From an uncultured Alphaproteobacteria bacterium (GTDB lineage Bacteria > Pseudomonadota > Alphaproteobacteria > Rhizobiales > Xanthobacteraceae): a stretch of DNA of 32,000 nt. Positions 5,731-17,390 of the stretch are shown here, piece by piece. A program made the position numbers and the translations under genes. The stretch covers positions 459,719 through 491,718 of the forward strand of contig CAWDGT010000004.1 of the NCBI GenBank assembly GCA_963801875.1, in the 5' to 3' direction. The first letter of the stretch is position 1, and each line of letters begins with the position of its first letter. The notes below the pieces were generated by a model that worked only from the letters and a program-made list of their open reading frames with translations, was not told the DNA's origin and made no database searches.

Positions 5731-5826
5731 GGCACTTTTCGGACATGGCGCGATGTCCGACTTGAGTCCGCTTTCGGGGGAATAGCGGAAGTCGCATTTC
5801 GGGGTCGTCAGGTCAGCTTTTGACCC
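5731..5826 (+). repeat. REP-like composite repeat, full-length copy (A + B modules)
   Basis: ggcacttttcggacatggcgcgatgtccgacttgagtccgctttcgggggaatagcggaagtcgcatttcggggtcgtcaggtcagcttttgaccc. The reverse complement of 15916..16010 is nearly identical over the whole length. Confidence 0.9.
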
Positions 5827-7252
5827 AAAGATGGGGTAATCGGCCGGCCCAGCTTGTGGATAGGTGAAGATTTTGGGTGCTGCGCTTCAGGCTGATGGTG
5901 AAACGAGGTCCGTTGTTAGGACGGCCTCAAGCATCAGAAGGAGAAGCGCAGCATGGACCATTTTGCGGGATTGGACGTATCGGTCAAGGAGACCAGCATC
6001 TGCATTGTGGATGACACGGGACGGATCTTCAGGGAAGTGAAGGTAGCGAGCGAGTCTGAAGCCCTTTTGAAGGTTCTTGGGAACCCAGCCTACCGCTTCA
6101 AGCGGATTGGATTGGAAGCCGGACCGCTGTCGCAATGGCTGTTCAGCGCTCTCGCTGAAGCAGGCTTACCAGTGGTCTGTGTTGAGACGCGGCACATGCG
6201 AGCGGTGTTGAAGGCGCAGATCAACAAGACGGACCGCAACGATGCGCGCGGCATCGCCCAGATGATGCGGGTGGGTCTTTACCGTCCGGTGCATGTGAAG
6301 ACGTTACGCAGTCAGAAATTGCGGATGCTGCTGACCCACCGCAAGCTATTGCAGTCGAAGGCCATCGCAATCGAAAATGATCTACGAGGCACCTTGCGTA
6401 ACTTCGGCCTCAAGGTCGGGATGGTTGGCAATGTGAGGTTCGAGGCTCGCATCCAGGAGTTGGTCGAGAACCAGCCCGATCTAGCCGATCTGGTCGAACC
6501 GCTACTCATCGTTCGGCGGACGCTCCGCGAACAGATCGTTATCCTACATCGCCGTTTGTTGGCCATCGTGCGAGACGATGAGGTTTGCCGGCGTTTGATG
6601 ACGATCCCGGGTGTCGGCCCCGTGGTGTCGCTGACCTATCGCGCCACCGTCGATGTACCTGCTCGGTTCCGCAAATCCAAGTCAGTCGGGGCGGTGTTTG
6701 GGCTGACGAGCGCCAGGTATCAATCGGGCGAGGTGGATTGGAGCGGCGAAATATCGCGATGTGGCGATGAGATGATGCGGACCATGCTCTACGAAGCAGC
6801 GCAGAGCATGATGCATTCAAAAAAATGGTCATGGCTTAAGGCGTGGGCCATGCAGATCGCCAGGCGCCGCGGGATGAAGAAGGCGATAGTGGCCCTGGCT
6901 CGCCGGCTGGCCGTGATCATGCACCGCATCTGGGTCGACGGCACCGAGTTCCGGTGGACCCGGGAGCAGGCCGCGGCAGCAGCATGAAACCCGTTCAGGA
7001 TCAAACCCAATAGGAGAAAGCCAGAGTTCCACCCAGCAGTGGAAAGATGTCCCTCGCGGGACGATGGATGAGGTGAGTCCGTATGTCCGCTTGTTCCTGC
7101 CGTTCGATTGACGGCAAGGCCAACTCAAAGATTGTTCCGCCCCGTCCTCGGATCCCATGATGGAAGGGCCCTGGTGCCGATTCCGTAGAGAAGCGCGAGC
7201 CCGTGAGTGACATCGACACCGCATCGGTGGATAGTCTGAAAGTGCTTGACCC
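5827..7252 (+). mobile_element. IS110-family insertion sequence #1 (~1.4 kb; exact ends uncertain by about 15 nt)
   Basis: It carries a DEDD-type transposase gene with a 126-nt 5' and a ~265-nt 3' non-coding region. ttgaccc occurs at both junctions (5820-5826 and 7246-7252). The paralogous locus upstream of kinase 1 (repeat directly followed by leader) serves as an empty-site-like reference. Confidence 0.75.
5953..6987 (+). CDS. IS110-family transposase (DEDD_Tnp_IS110 + Transposase_20)
   Basis: MDHFAGLDVSVKETSICIVDD, IGLEAGP, NKTDRNDARGIAQ, then MTIPGVGPVVSLTY...ARYQSGE...GDEMMRTMLYEAA. These are the classic DEDD and C-terminal motifs of the family. Confidence 0.95.
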   Translation: MDHFAGLDVSVKETSICIVDDTGRIFREVKVASESEALLKVLGNPAYRFKRIGLEAGPLSQWLFSALAEAGLPVVCVETRHMRAVLKAQINKTDRNDARGIAQMMRVGLYRPVHVKTLRSQKLRMLLTHRKLLQSKAIAIENDLRGTLRNFGLKVGMVGNVRFEARIQELVENQPDLADLVEPLLIVRRTLREQIVILHRRLLAIVRDDEVCRRLMTIPGVGPVVSLTYRATVDVPARFRKSKSVGAVFGLTSARYQSGEVDWSGEISRCGDEMMRTMLYEAAQSMMHSKKWSWLKAWAMQIARRRGMKKAIVALARRLAVIMHRIWVDGTEFRWTREQAAAAA

Positions 7253-7309
7253 CAACCGGCCGATTAGAGAAGCGGACATCACCGGGGCAGTCGACATGCA
7301 CGATTCTTG

Positions 7310-15139: not shown

Positions 15140-15915
15140 CGCGCGCCCTCTGGAATTATCGAAACTTTAACGATTATCTTCACCAATTAGTCAACGCTTC
15201 GTTAATGACGGGTCCGGGCCGTGACAGTTCGGAGCATATTTGTGGTGCGATGTTCGATCATGAGATGCCGCTGTGGCATCCTGCACGTGGTAGCCGCATC
15301 CCGGCTCTGCAAGTTCGCGCCCCGGCTTCGACGAAACGAAAGTGGCCGCCAACCGAGCAACCTTACTTGTCTCGTTCACCTAGCGGGTTGCTGGTCGAGC
15401 GGTTGATAAAATGAAGTCTAGTGCAAGCCTGACAGACCACGGGTTTATGAGTTGTGCCCGTTGGATCGTCAGGCGCGTCTTCGAGCAAATGCTGCACGTT
15501 TAACCGGCCATTTCATCGTTAGGACAGCAACGCTGGCTTGATTAGCACCGTCGCCGGTGACACATGATAGATCATCGGGGATACGTTGGCCCCGACACGC
15601 TGGCAACGCATCGACTGCCTCATTCAATGATGGCTGTGCGTCCGGTGGCTAGCAGGCTCAGACTACGTTTCGGGCACCGCTCGGCGCAGCAAACCTCTAG
15701 GCAAACGCAACGCAACGGCATGAGCCGTCGAGGGAGACCTTGGCGGCTTTTGCGTGTGGACATGCAGCCAACGATAATCGGGATGAAGGTGTAGCCTAAC
15801 GCTAACCGGCCGACGTCAGCTATCCCCTCCGATAGCGACCAAATCCCGCAGGACAGCGAACGAAAAGGTGCCGGGACAGCGTCCAACACGATGATGGGAT
15901 CCGATGTTGGTTCCT

Positions 15916-16010
15916 GGGTAAAAGCGGACCTGACGGCCCCGAAATCCAATTTCCGCTTTACCCCCGAAAGCAGACTCATGTCGGACATCTCGCCATGTCC
16001 GAAAAGTGCC
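15916..16010 (-). repeat. REP-like composite repeat, full-length copy in reverse orientation
   Basis: The reverse complement reads ggcacttttcggacatggcgagatgtccgacatgagtctgctttcgggggtaaagcggaaattggatttcggggccgtcaggtccgcttttaccc, collinear with 5731..5826. Confidence 0.9.
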
Positions 16011-16011
16011 A

Positions 16012-17390
16012 TGTGTGGACGGCTCCGGATTGGCAAGGACTTTTTTCACGTCGCAGGCTTGGTCGGTGCAGCCATGTGTTCGGCCTTTAAGCGCGGTTCA
16101 CATGACCGCTGGCCATAATGCCCTCCGCGGATCAGGTCCCGGTCAAAACCGCGCATTCGATAGCAATGCGATGGCACAAGTGGGTTGTCCTGATCGCCGG
16201 ATCGACCGGCTCTGCATTACGTGCTGTTCGCCCTCCCAACCTTCACATCACGCCGGTTATCCGGCGCGATCTCGTTCACCGCGCTAGCGCGACAGGATTT
16301 CTATATCGCTCACCTTTGGCCATCATGGCCCAGGCCATCCGCGCAATCTTGTTGGCAAGCGCGATCGCGGCGACCTTTGTCGGGCGTCGACCTAGCAACG
16401 CCGTGAGCCAAGGCCGATGCCCGGTGCCATGGATCTTGGCATAGCGGATGACGGCGAGTGCTCCGGCCACGAACAGGCTCCGCAGATAGCGATCGCCCTG
16501 TTTACTGATGCTGCCGAGCCGCTCCTTGCCCCCACTTGAGTGCTGTTTGGGAACGAGCCCAATCCAGGCGGAGAAGTTACGTCCGGACCGGAAGGTTCTG
16601 GGATCGGCAACACTCGCAACCAGCGCAGTCGCCAGCATCGGGCCGACCCCAGGAATGTAATGAAGGCGCTTACTCGTCTGGTCGGACCGATGCCAGACCA
16701 GGATCATCCGATCGAACTCCAAAATCTGCTCCTTGAGAGCGAGCAGCTGGGTACCGAGCGCGGCAAGGCAGGCACGGGCAACCTCCGGCACCCGCTTGTC
16801 CTTCGGGTCGGCAACAATACGCAGCAATTCCGTGACCCCTTTGCGCCCGACCGGTGCGACAATGCCGAACTCGGCGAGATGCGCTCGGATCGAATTAATC
16901 ACCGCGGTCTGCTGACGGATGAATAGATGGCGTGTGCGATGAAGCATCAGACAACTCTGCTGCTCTGGCGTCTTGGTTGGCACGAACCGCATGTTGGCTC
17001 TGGTGACCGCTTCGCAAATCGCTTCTGCGTCGGCCATGTCGTTCTTCTGCCGTTTGACATAGGGCTTTACGTAAGCCGGCGGCATCAATCGCACGGTATG
17101 GCCAAGTGTCTGCAACTCGCGCGACCAATGGTGAGACGAGGCGCAAGCCTCGATGCCGACCAAGCAGGGTGGCAGCTTCTCAAAGAATGTCAGCACGTGG
17201 CGACGTTTCAACTGGCGGCGGATGACCACCTGGCCGGCGGCATCAACGCCGTGCACCTGGAACACCGACTTGGCGATGTCGAGACCGATTGTCGTGATCG
17301 TCTGCATGGACCTGCTCCTCTAAATCGTGGGAGCCTCAACAGCGCCCACATCCATGGCACTCATGTGCCGGTGGAGGAGCCGTCCACAGC
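16012..17390 (-). mobile_element. IS110-family insertion sequence #2 (~1.38 kb) with 13-bp terminal/subterminal inverted repeats
   Basis: tgtggacggctcc at 16014..16026 and its exact reverse complement ggagccgtccaca at 17376..17388 bracket the transposase gene. In gene orientation the 5' non-coding region is ~80 nt and the 3' non-coding region ~260 nt. Confidence 0.8.
16276..17307 (-). CDS. IS110-family transposase (a different lineage from 5953..6987)
   Basis: IGLDIAKSVFQVHGVD, LVGIEACASSHHW, KRQKNDMADAEAICEA, then YIPGVGPMLATALVASV...PKQHSSGGKERLGSISKQGDRYLRSLFV. Confidence 0.95.
   Translation of the reverse strand: MQTITTIGLDIAKSVFQVHGVDAAGQVVIRRQLKRRHVLTFFEKLPPCLVGIEACASSHHWSRELQTLGHTVRLMPPAYVKPYVKRQKNDMADAEAICEAVTRANMRFVPTKTPEQQSCLMLHRTRHLFIRQQTAVINSIRAHLAEFGIVAPVGRKGVTELLRIVADPKDKRVPEVARACLAALGTQLLALKEQILEFDRMILVWHRSDQTSKRLHYIPGVGPMLATALVASVADPRTFRSGRNFSAWIGLVPKQHSSGGKERLGSISKQGDRYLRSLFVAGALAVIRYAKIHGTGHRPWLTALLGRRPTKVAAIALANKIARMAWAMMAKGERYRNPVALAR

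What the first reader, a model, noticed from the sequence alone, without database searches (positions are those of the whole stretch)
5827..7266. IS110-family element #1 inserted at the edge of a REP-like repeat, with a ~265-nt 3' non-coding tail (bridge-RNA candidate)
Seen in the sequence:
- The element begins immediately after the full-length repeat 5731..5826, which ends ...cagcttttgaccc.
- The sequence ttgaccc reappears at 7246..7252, just before the kinase-2 leader.
- In the paralogous kinase-1 locus the same repeat end (…cttttgaccc, 851-860) runs straight into the leader. That locus acts as an uninterrupted reference and places the insertion at the repeat edge.
- Other end features are taatcggccgg (5837-5847) inverted with ccggccgatta (7256-7266), and gtggatag as a direct repeat (5856-5863 and 7227-7234).

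Established knowledge: IS110/IS1111 elements lack classical terminal inverted repeats, often target REP-type repeats, and were shown in 2024 to use a bridge/seek RNA encoded in a non-coding end to pair with target and donor DNA. The IS1111 subgroup has the long non-coding region 3' of the recombinase, as here (6988..~7252).

Inference: 6988..7252 encodes the guide RNA, and its loops should match the REP edge.
Basis: partly seen in the sequence, partly recalled or inferred. Interest (0 to 1): 0.6.

Follow-up and report, generated by a model that had tools for sequence, protein, structure and literature searches.

The report
IS1111-type insertion sequence with bridge RNA
This is an ordinary but very well-resolved jumping gene of the IS110/IS1111 kind. 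The untranslated stretch after its transposase gene encodes a guide ("bridge" or "seek") RNA, and short loops of that RNA spell out both the genomic site it inserts into and its own two ends.

Summary

**Element.** It spans 5831-7270 (1440 bp) and has an AG "core" dinucleotide on each side (5829-30 and 7271-72). It carries 11-bp subterminal inverted repeats and an intact 344-aa DEDD/Ser transposase. The genome holds about 15 near-identical copies.

**Insertion site.** It sits inside a REP-like palindrome (…TGTCCGCT-N12-AG|CGGACAT), not at its edge. The "ttgaccc" at 7246 is an IS-internal motif found in all relatives, probably the -35 box of a circle-junction promoter. It is not a copy of the target.

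**Bridge-RNA reading: supported.**
- Across 85-95 independent insertions, 7124-7130 (CUCAA+AG) equals the left flank.
- 7083-7091 (AUGUCCG+CU) is the reverse complement of the right flank.
- Both segments are rewritten in relatives that use other sites.
- 7187-7193 equals the element's right tip plus the core in 11 of 11 lineages, across five different 7-mers.
- 7152-7158 pairs with the left tip.

**Structure.** A consensus structure at 7036-7222 places these four segments on four 10-nt internal-loop strands (96.8% of cells paired, 24 compensatory pairs).

**Verdict.** This is a new member of a known kind. Whether the RNA is expressed could not be checked.

The parts
5731..5828 (+). Left part of the REP-like repeat. 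Its last 5 nt (5824-5828, CCCAA) are the left target (LT).
   Evidence: Repeat family D6 and inverted copy I1. The left-flank consensus of 85 insertions is tgtcCgct.Tt.gcCCaAA+AG.
5829..5830 (+). Left copy of the AG core dinucleotide.
   Evidence: AG is invariant on both sides of 87 insertions. It is present once in an uninterrupted sibling site and on both sides in the filled site.
5831..7270 (+). IS1111-type insertion sequence, 1440 bp.
   Evidence: The genome holds 15 copies at 98-100% identity, about 8 at 88-89%, and fragments. The ends were defined by where similarity stops.
5831..5837 (+). Left tip ATGGGGT. This is the right donor (RD) in the circle junction.
   Evidence: It pairs with 7152-7158. 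The pairing covaries in L118, G231, G119 and L141.
5837..5847 (+). Left subterminal inverted repeat, TAATCGGCCGG.
   Evidence: LE+15 against 7258: 89% complementary.
5879..5952 (+). 5'-UTR stem: GCTGCGCTTC (5879-5888) with GAAGCGCAGC (5943-5952). It covers the ribosome-binding site and abuts the ATG. Inferred to occlude translation of read-through transcripts.
   Evidence: Perfect 10-bp inverted repeat in the sequence. Both arms are conserved in distant relatives. Its function is inferred only.
5953..6987 (+). Transposase/recombinase gene, 344 aa. D8, E55, D94, D97 and S258 are present.
   Evidence: (C-terminal domain matches ISCro4 9t56 and IS621 8wt6, E about 1e-10 to 1e-11).
7036..7222 (+). 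Structured core of the predicted bridge/seek RNA.

Helices:
- 7036-41 / 7217-22
- 7046-60 / 7200-14
- 7066-81 / 7133-47
- 7092-7104 / 7110-22
- 7148-50 / 7196-98
- 7161-69 / 7176-85
   Evidence: RNAalifold on 44 sequences. 96.8% of cells are paired and 24 pairs have compensatory changes; 0 of 500 shuffles reach this, and slid controls give 37-44%. G.U 326 against A.C 28 gives the strand.
7083..7091 (+). Right target guide (RTG), AUGUCCG+CU. It is the reverse complement of AG+CGGACAT (7271-7279).
   Evidence: Match is 9 of 9 in the window. RT +1 to +7 match at 78-91% over 85 insertions and fall to chance beyond that. Rewritten in relatives.
7124..7130 (+). Left target guide (LTG), CUCAA+AG. It has the same sequence as the left flank plus the core.
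   Evidence: LT -5 to -1 match at 61-87%. This is the top mutual-information signal in an unbiased scan. There are 22 distinct LTG 7-mers among close relatives. In the window the match is 6 of 7 (CCCAAAG).
7152..7158 (+). Right donor guide (RDG), AUCCCAU. It pairs with the left tip ATGGGGT, with one G.U pair.
   Evidence: Compensatory pairs: L118 ATAGGAT/AUCCUAU, G231 ATGCC/GGCAU, L141 ATAC/GUAU; L113 is perfect. This is the weakest of the four guides.
7187..7193 (+). Left donor guide (LDG), AGAGA+AG. It has the same sequence as the right tip plus the core.
   Evidence: Exact 7 of 7 in 11 of 11 lineages, with five different 7-mers: AGAGAAG, ACGGAAG, ACAGAAG, AAAGAAG, AGAGAAC.
7246..7251 (+). 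Conserved TTGACC. Inferred -35 box of a promoter completed at the circle junction: 17 nt, then GA|AG|AT.
   Evidence: TTGAC is invariant in 44 relatives. The same 17-nt spacing to the tip is seen in G231, G119 and L132. Promoter function is inferred only.
7256..7266 (+). Right subterminal inverted repeat, CCGGCCGATTA.
7266..7270 (+). Right tip AGAGA. This is the left donor (LD) in the circle junction.
7271..7272 (+). Right copy of the AG core.
7273..7279 (+). Right target (RT), CGGACAT. It is the 3' arm of the REP-like palindrome.

Best explanation
Positions 5831-7270 are an intact, recently active IS1111-type member of the IS110 family.

**The RNA.** Its 283-nt 3' non-coding end encodes, on the transposase strand, a bridge/seek RNA of about 190 nt (7036-7222). 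The RNA has two internal loops, each split by a hairpin.

**Target loop.**
- The 5' strand (7083-7091) pairs with the top strand of core+right target, AG-CGGACAT.
- The 3' strand (7124-7130) has the sequence of left target+core, CUCAA-AG. It therefore pairs with the bottom strand.
- Together they specify a 14-nt site (5+2+7). In this host that site is the loop/3'-arm junction of a REP-like palindrome.

**Donor loop.**
- The 5' strand (7152-7158) pairs with the element's left tip ATGGGGT.
- The 3' strand (7187-7193) has the sequence of the right tip+core, AGAGA-AG.
- It thus recognises the RE-AG-LE junction of an excised circle.

**Recombination.** The DEDD/Ser recombinase exchanges strands at the shared AG, which leaves one AG on each side.

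**Shown here:** the ends, the core, the site logo, guide-flank and guide-tip covariation, the consensus fold and the strand.

**Inferred from the IS621, ISEc11 and ISPa11 work (PMC11208160, PMC11208158, PMC11187229):** RNA expression, the protein-RNA complex, the circular intermediate and the chemistry.
For: **1. Protein.** Pfam PF01548 and PF02371. NCBIfam 'IS110 family RNA-guided transposase', 246 bits. D8, E55, D94, D97 and S258 are present. PDB relatives are ISCro4 and IS621.

**2. Activity.** 15 copies at 98-100% identity sit in different flanks.

**3. Ends and core.** 87 distinct insertions all read NN-AG|ATGG…GAGA|AG-CRGACAT. An uninterrupted sibling site reads GGTCCA-AG-CGGACAT with a single AG, and the filled site has AG on both sides.

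**4. Target guides.**
- Flank matches run at 61-91% over exactly 5+7 positions and are at chance beyond them.
- 0 of 3000 permutations reach the observed score.
- 22 LTG and 8 RTG variants track their flanks. Examples: CACTTAG/GGCACTTAG, UCGGUCGCU/AGCGACCGA, ACUUCCGCU/AGCGGAAGT.
- Ten plasmid relatives with unrelated targets have both segments rewritten to match.
- An unbiased mutual-information scan ranks these same columns at the top.

**5. Donor guides.** LDG is exact in 11 of 11 lineages across five different tip+core 7-mers, including AC-core lineages where LTG and LDG both carry AC. RDG shows compensatory changes.

**6. Fold.** 53 pairs, 96.8% of cells paired against 37-44% when slid. 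24 compensatory pairs against 4-13. 0 of 500 shuffles reach this. The four guides fall on four 10-nt unpaired loop strands.

**7. Strand.** 326 G.U against 28 A.C at paired columns.

**8. Guide order.** The top-strand-complementary guide lies 5' of the bottom-strand-complementary guide. PMC11187229 reports this order for IS1111-type seekRNAs.
Against: - There is no transcript evidence.
- Rfam 15 gives no match.
- The single-sequence fold is not better than shuffles: z = -0.32 and -1.41.
- RDG is the weakest guide. It does not pair with the core here (CCCAU-GA). It also mismatches position 5 of the ATGGTGT left tips, which are nevertheless multi-copy.
- About half of the main-type copies in this genome sit next to CAGACAT although their RTG encodes CGGACAT. 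That is a C.A mismatch at RT+2.
- The window copy's own left flank matches LTG at only 4 of 5 positions.
- The sequences are related to each other, so the permutation figures overstate independence.
- The 5' part of the RNA can also form two local hairpins, so the outer helices are not certain.
Confidence: 0.9

Rival explanations
1. Only the target loop works as RNA. This would be a short seekRNA of about 80-100 nt covering 7066-7147. The element's ends would be recognised by the protein through the subterminal inverted repeats, and the 'donor loop' similarity would be a by-product.
For: PMC11187229 found that the predominant RNA co-purifying with IS1111-type transposases is 82-96 nt and describes only target matches. 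RDG is weak here. The subterminal repeats covary as a DNA inverted repeat.
Against: LDG equals right tip+core exactly in 11 of 11 lineages, across five different 7-mers at the homologous position. RDG changes compensate left-tip changes in L118, G231 and L141. The outer helices 7036-60 / 7200-22 enclose both loops and show compensatory changes.
Confidence: 0.07
2. The tail is only a protein-binding non-coding end. Its similarity to the flanks would arise because target sequence is copied into the element, or by chance.
For: Rfam gives no hit. The single-sequence fold is unremarkable.
Against: One guide is identical to its flank and the other is the reverse complement of its flank. Both lie 140-190 nt inside the element. 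They track 22 and 8 different flank variants, plus ten unrelated targets. The structure shows strong covariation with many G.U pairs.
Confidence: 0.02
3. The functional RNA is transcribed from the opposite strand.
For: Guide complementarity alone is symmetric. On the other strand, one segment would still match each DNA strand.
Against: 326 G.U pairs would become A.C mismatches on the other strand, against only 28 A.C on this strand.
Confidence: 0.01

Closest known systems
IS1111-group elements with a 3' seekRNA (ISEc11, ISPa11, ISKpn4, ISPst6; Siddiquee et al. 2024, PMC11187229)
   Same: - Subterminal inverted repeats.
- A 330-350-aa DEDD transposase with a conserved SG motif.
- The long non-coding region lies downstream of tnp.
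[quoted passage not shown]
- ISPa11 also targets REP sequences.
   Different: - The target is different: CTCAA-AG-CGGACAT in a REP-like palindrome of a Bradyrhizobium/Xanthobacteraceae-type genome.
- The motif here is GLTSARYQSG, with S in place of the usual P.
- A donor loop is evident here by covariation, whereas that paper describes target matches only.
- Nothing has been tested experimentally here.
IS621 bridge RNA (Durrant et al. 2024, PMC11208160; Hiraizumi et al. 2024, PMC11208158)
   Same: - Two internal loops, each with two guide strands that read opposite DNA strands.
- A 14-nt target with a 2-nt core shared by target and donor.
- A DEDD+Ser recombinase; the C-terminal domain matches 8wt6 at E = 1.9e-10.
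- Natural guide-target covariation.
   Different: - The RNA is at the 3' end of the element, not the 5' end.
- Guide order is reversed within each loop.
- The split is 5+2+7 rather than 7+2+5.
- The core is AG (AC in some relatives), not CT.
- RDG does not pair with the core here.
- Long subterminal repeats are present.
- Long-range helices may enclose both loops.
- Handshake positions could not be tested, because the tips are invariant.
ISPpu9 and ISPpu10 of Pseudomonas putida KT2440 (PMC12288879)
   Same: - IS110-family elements inserted into REP sequences.
- A small-RNA gene lies downstream of tnp.
- Extra solo or duplicated copies of the RNA module are present in the genome.
- ISPpu10 has a hybrid junction promoter.
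   Different: - Ssr9 was reported not to be required for ISPpu9 transposition.
- Here the tail carries the guides. The duplicated-tail composites (C10:101409-103157 and C10:826211-827958) still have canonical target flanks.

Membership tests
IS110 family (DEDD transposase insertion sequences) | Transposase with an N-terminal DEDD RuvC-like domain (PF01548) and a C-terminal Tnp domain (PF02371) carrying the catalytic Ser of the SG motif. | tested here: met
   PF01548 E = 3e-19 and PF02371 E = 7e-20. NF033542 at 246 bits against a cut-off of 140. D8, E55, D94, D97 and S258-G259 are present. PDB hits are ISCro4 and IS621.
IS110 family (DEDD transposase insertion sequences) | Sequence-specific insertion with a short core shared by donor and target, and no long target duplication. 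| tested here: met
   85-87 insertions give one site logo with AG on both sides. A single AG is present in an empty sibling site.
IS1111 group | Subterminal inverted repeats of 7-17 bp, set a few bases in from the tips. | tested here: met
   11 bp at 5837-5847 and 7256-7266, lying 6 and 4 nt from the tips. They covary in relatives.
IS1111 group | The long non-coding region lies downstream of tnp, and the transposase is about 330-350 aa. | tested here: met
   283 nt downstream against 122 nt upstream; the protein is 344 aa.
IS1111 group | The transposase clusters with IS1111 relatives in a phylogeny, and the GL-P----S(t)G motif is present. | tested here: inconclusive
   The motif reads GLTSARYQSG: GL and SG are present, but S replaces P. 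No named IS1111 reference sequences were at hand, and ISfinder is not available.
Bridge RNA / seekRNA | A target-binding loop with two guide strands that read opposite strands of the target on either side of the core. | tested here: met
   7083-7091 and 7124-7130.
Bridge RNA / seekRNA | A donor-binding loop with two guide strands that read the element's two tips. | tested here: met
   LDG is exact in 11 of 11 lineages with five variants. RDG shows compensatory changes but is weaker.
Bridge RNA / seekRNA | A conserved secondary structure that places the guides in internal loops. | tested here: met
Bridge RNA / seekRNA | The RNA is expressed, binds the recombinase and is required for recombination. 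| not testable with these tools
Bridge RNA / seekRNA | A match to a curated or published covariance model. | tested here: not met
   Rfam 15 gives no hit at gathering score or at E <= 10. The models of PMC11208160 are not in the tools. That Rfam lacks a suitable family is my inference.
REP (repetitive extragenic palindromic) target | A short, imperfect, intergenic palindrome present in many copies. | tested here: inconclusive
   Four full or partial repeat copies lie in the window. 23 of 85 sites have an inverted copy of the right arm 12-13 nt upstream, against a control mean of 4.2. AGCRGACAT occurs 200 times against about 75 expected, but that count includes IS-borne copies.

The most novel reading that the evidence does not exclude
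Two readings are not excluded.

**Switchable RNA.** Long-range helices (7036-60 with 7200-22) enclose both loops. They compete with two conserved local hairpins at 7027-44 and 7049-62. Folding, and hence guide availability, could therefore be coupled to read-through from, or translation of, the transposase message.

**Lineage warfare.** The DNA that encodes the right target guide is itself a target on the opposite strand. One sibling copy has been hit exactly there (C8:129544-132408). Diverging IS lineages could therefore inactivate each other's guide genes.
Probability: 0.12. Interest if true: 0.6.

Novelty: new member of a known kind. Interest (0 to 1): 0.35.

Why it matters
Bridge and seek RNAs are being developed as programmable recombinases, and the IS1111 branch has far less structural and rule-level information than IS621.

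This family offers a dense natural reprogramming series. Transposases 90-96% identical carry 33 different guide combinations, each next to its own insertion site. More distant lineages add changed cores (AG or AC) and changed tips.

From sequence alone this gives:
- the guide lengths (5+2+7);
- a tolerated position (RT+2);
- a consensus fold;
- donor-loop rules for an IS1111-type RNA.

For the genome itself, it explains why a REP-like repeat next to the kinase-2 gene is split. It also shows that the element is a currently mobile, multi-copy source of rearrangement.

Tried and rejected
- **Rfam scan** at gathering score and at E <= 10: no relevant hit.
- **Single-sequence folding** of 6975-7272 and 7036-7222: not better than shuffles, and it mis-pairs the guides.
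- **Orthologous empty site** for the window's own insertion, searched in 40 relatives: only GAF-domain paralogues matched. I used an interrupted and an uninterrupted sibling IS instead.
- **'ttgaccc' as a target duplication:** rejected, because TTGAC is invariant in relatives with unrelated targets.
- **'gtggatag' direct repeat as functional:** rejected, because it is not conserved.
- **Handshake-type pairing** of the two bases after LDG with the right target: rejected, because they do not covary in the plasmid relatives.
- **Local 5' hairpins** instead of long-range helices: 92% paired but with almost no covariation, so this is left open.
- **Very divergent single copies** (L136, L139, L156): their ends could not be defined with confidence, so they were left out of the donor-loop table.
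- **ISfinder naming:** not possible with these tools.
Full report
**Observation.** The ORF 5953-6987 (344 aa) carries the two Pfam domains of IS110-family transposases: PF01548 at E = 3e-19 and PF02371 at E = 7e-20. It scores 246 bits against NCBIfam NF033542, 'IS110 family RNA-guided transposase'. The catalytic D8, E55, D94, D97 and S258 (RYQSG) are present. The C-terminal domain matches the solved ISCro4 (9t56) and IS621 (8wt6) recombinases at E of about 1e-10 to 1e-11.

**Copies and true ends.** The window's genome is 6.2 Mb in 14 contigs. It holds 15 copies at 98-100% identity, about 8 copies of a variant at 88-89%, and a few fragments. A scan of genome contigs added 80 loci with 90-96% identical transposases from Xanthobacteraceae/Bradyrhizobium-type genomes. 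This gave 87 distinct insertions in total. All read NN-AG | ATGG[G/T]GTAATCGGCC … GGCCGATTAGAGA | AG-CRGACAT.

The element is therefore 5831-7270 (1440 bp), with AG at 5829-30 and 7271-72. The 11-bp inverted repeats are subterminal, lying 6 and 4 nt in from the tips. They covary in distant relatives: TAATCGGC/GCCGATTA against TATTCGGC/GCCGAATA.

**Core dinucleotide.** One main-type copy has inserted, in inverted orientation, into a copy of the 89% variant (C8:129544-132408). Two uninterrupted sibling copies of that variant read GGTCCA-AG-CGGACAT, with a single AG, at the same place. The filled site has AG on both sides of the 1440-bp insert. Paralogous empty repeats agree. I could not find the orthologous empty site for the window's own insertion in 40 related genomes.

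**Target.** The flank consensus of 85 insertions is tgtcCgct.Tt.gcCCaAA-AG | AG-CGGACAT. In 23 of the 85, the left flank holds an inverted copy of the right arm 12-13 nt upstream, against a control mean of 4.2 and a maximum of 10. The element thus sits inside a REP-like palindrome, at the junction of the loop and the 3' arm. In the window, the uninterrupted paralogue at 800-874 runs …TTTTGACCCGG-AG-CAGACAT. So the repeat is split by the element, not merely abutted.

**Target-binding loop.** Two segments of the tail match the flanks.
- 7083-7091 (ATGTCCG+CT) is the exact reverse complement of AG+CGGACAT.
- 7124-7130 (CTCAA+AG) has the sequence of the left flank plus the core.

Among the close relatives there are 22 different versions of the second segment and 8 of the first, in 33 combinations. 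They follow their own flanks. Examples are CACTTAG with GGCACTTAG, CCGATAG with CTCCGATAG, GCGGCAAAG with GGGGGCAAAG, TCGGTCGCT with AGCGACCGA, ACTTCCGCT with AGCGGAAGT, and TTTGTCCGCT with AGCGGACAAA.

Agreement is 61-87% at LT -5 to -1 and 78-91% at RT +1 to +7, and it drops to chance beyond those positions. None of 3000 permutations of flanks among elements reached the observed score. These sequences are related, so that figure overstates independence.

Ten plasmid-borne relatives at 65-70% DNA identity give further support. They come from Rhizobium, Microvirga, Sinorhizobium, Phyllobacterium, Shinella, Jiella, Mesorhizobium and Neorhizobium. They keep the same ends but sit in unrelated sequences, and in each one both segments are rewritten to match. 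In L111, for example, TTGCAAGCACT goes with AGTGCTTGCA, and CTCCTAG goes with …CTCCTAG. An unbiased mutual-information scan of every tail column against every flank and tip position ranks 7124-7128 (identity to LT) and 7083, 7086 and 7087 (complementarity to RT) among the top signals.

The site is therefore 5+2+7 = 14 nt. The guide complementary to the top strand lies 5' of the guide complementary to the bottom strand. PMC11187229 reports this order for IS1111-type seekRNAs, and it is the reverse of IS621.

**Donor-binding loop.** The close relatives all share the same tips, so I fetched lineages at 42-51% protein identity from a class-wide genome sample. I defined the ends of the two multi-copy families from where their copies diverge.

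The segment homologous to 7187-7193 equals right tip+core exactly in 11 of 11 lineages, and five different 7-mers are involved:

| 7-mer | Lineages |
|---|---|
| AGAGAAG | this element and the plasmid relatives |
| ACGGAAG | G231 |
| ACAGAAG | G119 |
| AAAGAAG | L145 |
| AGAGAAC | L132, L134, L141 |

In the AGAGAAC lineages the core is AC, and the left target guide also carries AC. Per-lineage shuffles reach an exact match in 3-15 of 300 trials.

The segment 7152-7158 (AUCCCAU) pairs with the left tip ATGGGGT with one G.U pair. Compensatory cases are L118 (ATAGGAT with AUCCUAU), G231 (ATGCC with GGCAU) and L141 (ATAC with GUAU). L113 pairs perfectly. This guide is the weakest of the four. It does not pair with the core here, and it mismatches position 5 of the ATGGTGT tips.

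**Structure and strand.** RNAalifold on 44 tails (34 close and 10 distant) predicts seven helices. In window coordinates they are:
- 7036-41 / 7217-22
- 7046-60 / 7200-14
- 7066-81 / 7133-47
- 7092-7104 / 7110-22, a run that counts as two helices
- 7148-50 / 7196-98
- 7161-69 / 7176-85

The four guide segments fall on the four unpaired 10-nt strands of two internal loops. Each loop is split by a hairpin. On this structure 96.8% of cells are standard pairs, against 37-44% when partners are slid. 24 of 53 pairs show compensatory change, against 4-13 when slid. 0 of 500 shuffles reach any of the measures.

Paired columns hold 326 G.U against 28 A.C cells, so the RNA is on the transposase strand. 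The 5' part can alternatively form two local hairpins, which are 92% paired but almost invariant. Which fold is used remains open. Single-sequence folding is uninformative, and Rfam has no matching family.

**Other features.** TTGAC at 7246-7250 is invariant in all 44 relatives, whatever their target. It lies 17 nt from the tip here and in G231, G119 and L132. After circularisation it would therefore face GA|AG|AT. I infer a junction promoter of the kind described for other IS110 elements (PMC12288879, PMC11208160). The gtggatag repeat is not conserved.

**Mechanism.** The best-supported explanation is RNA-guided recombination between an excised circle (RE-AG-LE) and the 14-nt site, catalysed by the DEDD/Ser recombinase. 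I take the circle, the ribonucleoprotein complex and the chemistry from the IS621 and ISEc11 work. I did not test them.

**Comparison and novelty.** The element meets every IS110 and IS1111 feature that I could test. The one exception is the exact GL-P----SG motif, where S stands in place of P. It works like the published IS1111-type seekRNA and bridge-RNA systems, and Durrant et al. already predicted bridge RNAs in 93% of IS1111 elements. It is therefore a new member of a known kind, and I could not check whether ISfinder already names it. Its value lies in the unusually dense natural covariation series and in the explicit donor loop and fold for the IS1111 branch.

Noticed in passing
Own genome C8:129544-132408 (loci L008, L023, L026): A main-type copy has inserted, inverted, into the DNA that encodes the right target guide of an 89% variant copy. 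On the opposite strand that DNA reads TCCA-AG-CGGACAT. The guide-coding DNA is therefore itself a target site.
   Followed up: partly
Own genome C10:101409-103157 and C10:826211-827958 (L021/L024, L022/L025): Two composite elements of about 1.75 kb. Each is a full variant IS, then AG, then a second copy of the last ~300 nt (end of tnp plus the whole RNA module and right end). Both have canonical but different left and right target flanks, so the unit with two RNA genes appears to have moved as a whole.
   Followed up: partly
Window 16300-17286 (- strand): A second, unrelated IS110-family transposase, 28% identical and E = 2e-22 by tblastn. It lies next to the inverted copy of the same REP-like repeat (15904-16010).
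   Followed up: no
Window 5879-5888 with 5943-5952: A perfect 10-bp stem, GCTGCGCTTC/GAAGCGCAGC, in the 5' UTR. It covers the ribosome-binding site and ends at the ATG. It is conserved in relatives at 65-70% identity, and L113 shows one compensatory change. It looks like translational occlusion of read-through transcripts.
   Followed up: partly
Own genome, main-type copies L002, L003, L004, L006, L007, L010, L011: Seven of about 15 main-type copies lie next to CAGACAT although their guide encodes CGGACAT. Every variant copy matches its own flank. Either RT+2 tolerates a C.A mismatch, or the variant's RNA (AUGUCUGCU) acts in trans on main-type circles, whose tips differ from the variant's only at left-tip position 5.
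   Followed up: no
L151 (G119:C1:693585-697592): In a relative at 50% identity, the insertion lies in the first of two tandem target copies: …ACAGA|AG-CCTGGAT…CCCGT-AG-CCTGGGT. This leaves an empty target directly downstream of the filled one.
   Followed up: no
L114 and L116 (Jiella and Rhizobium leguminosarum plasmids): Two relatives share the target TGAGTCAG|A(C/T)CCAAATTTGC and lie next to ISL3-type or other transposase genes. They may be targeting the end of another mobile element.
   Followed up: no
L136 (G046:C1:3416961-3420986): A copy in G046 with the same G231-type tail. Its last ~65 nt are tandemly duplicated (…GCTTGACGGGAACCGCCCCATTACGGA-AG appears twice). No recognisable left end lies within 260 nt upstream, and its flanks do not match its guides. 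It is probably rearranged.
   Followed up: no
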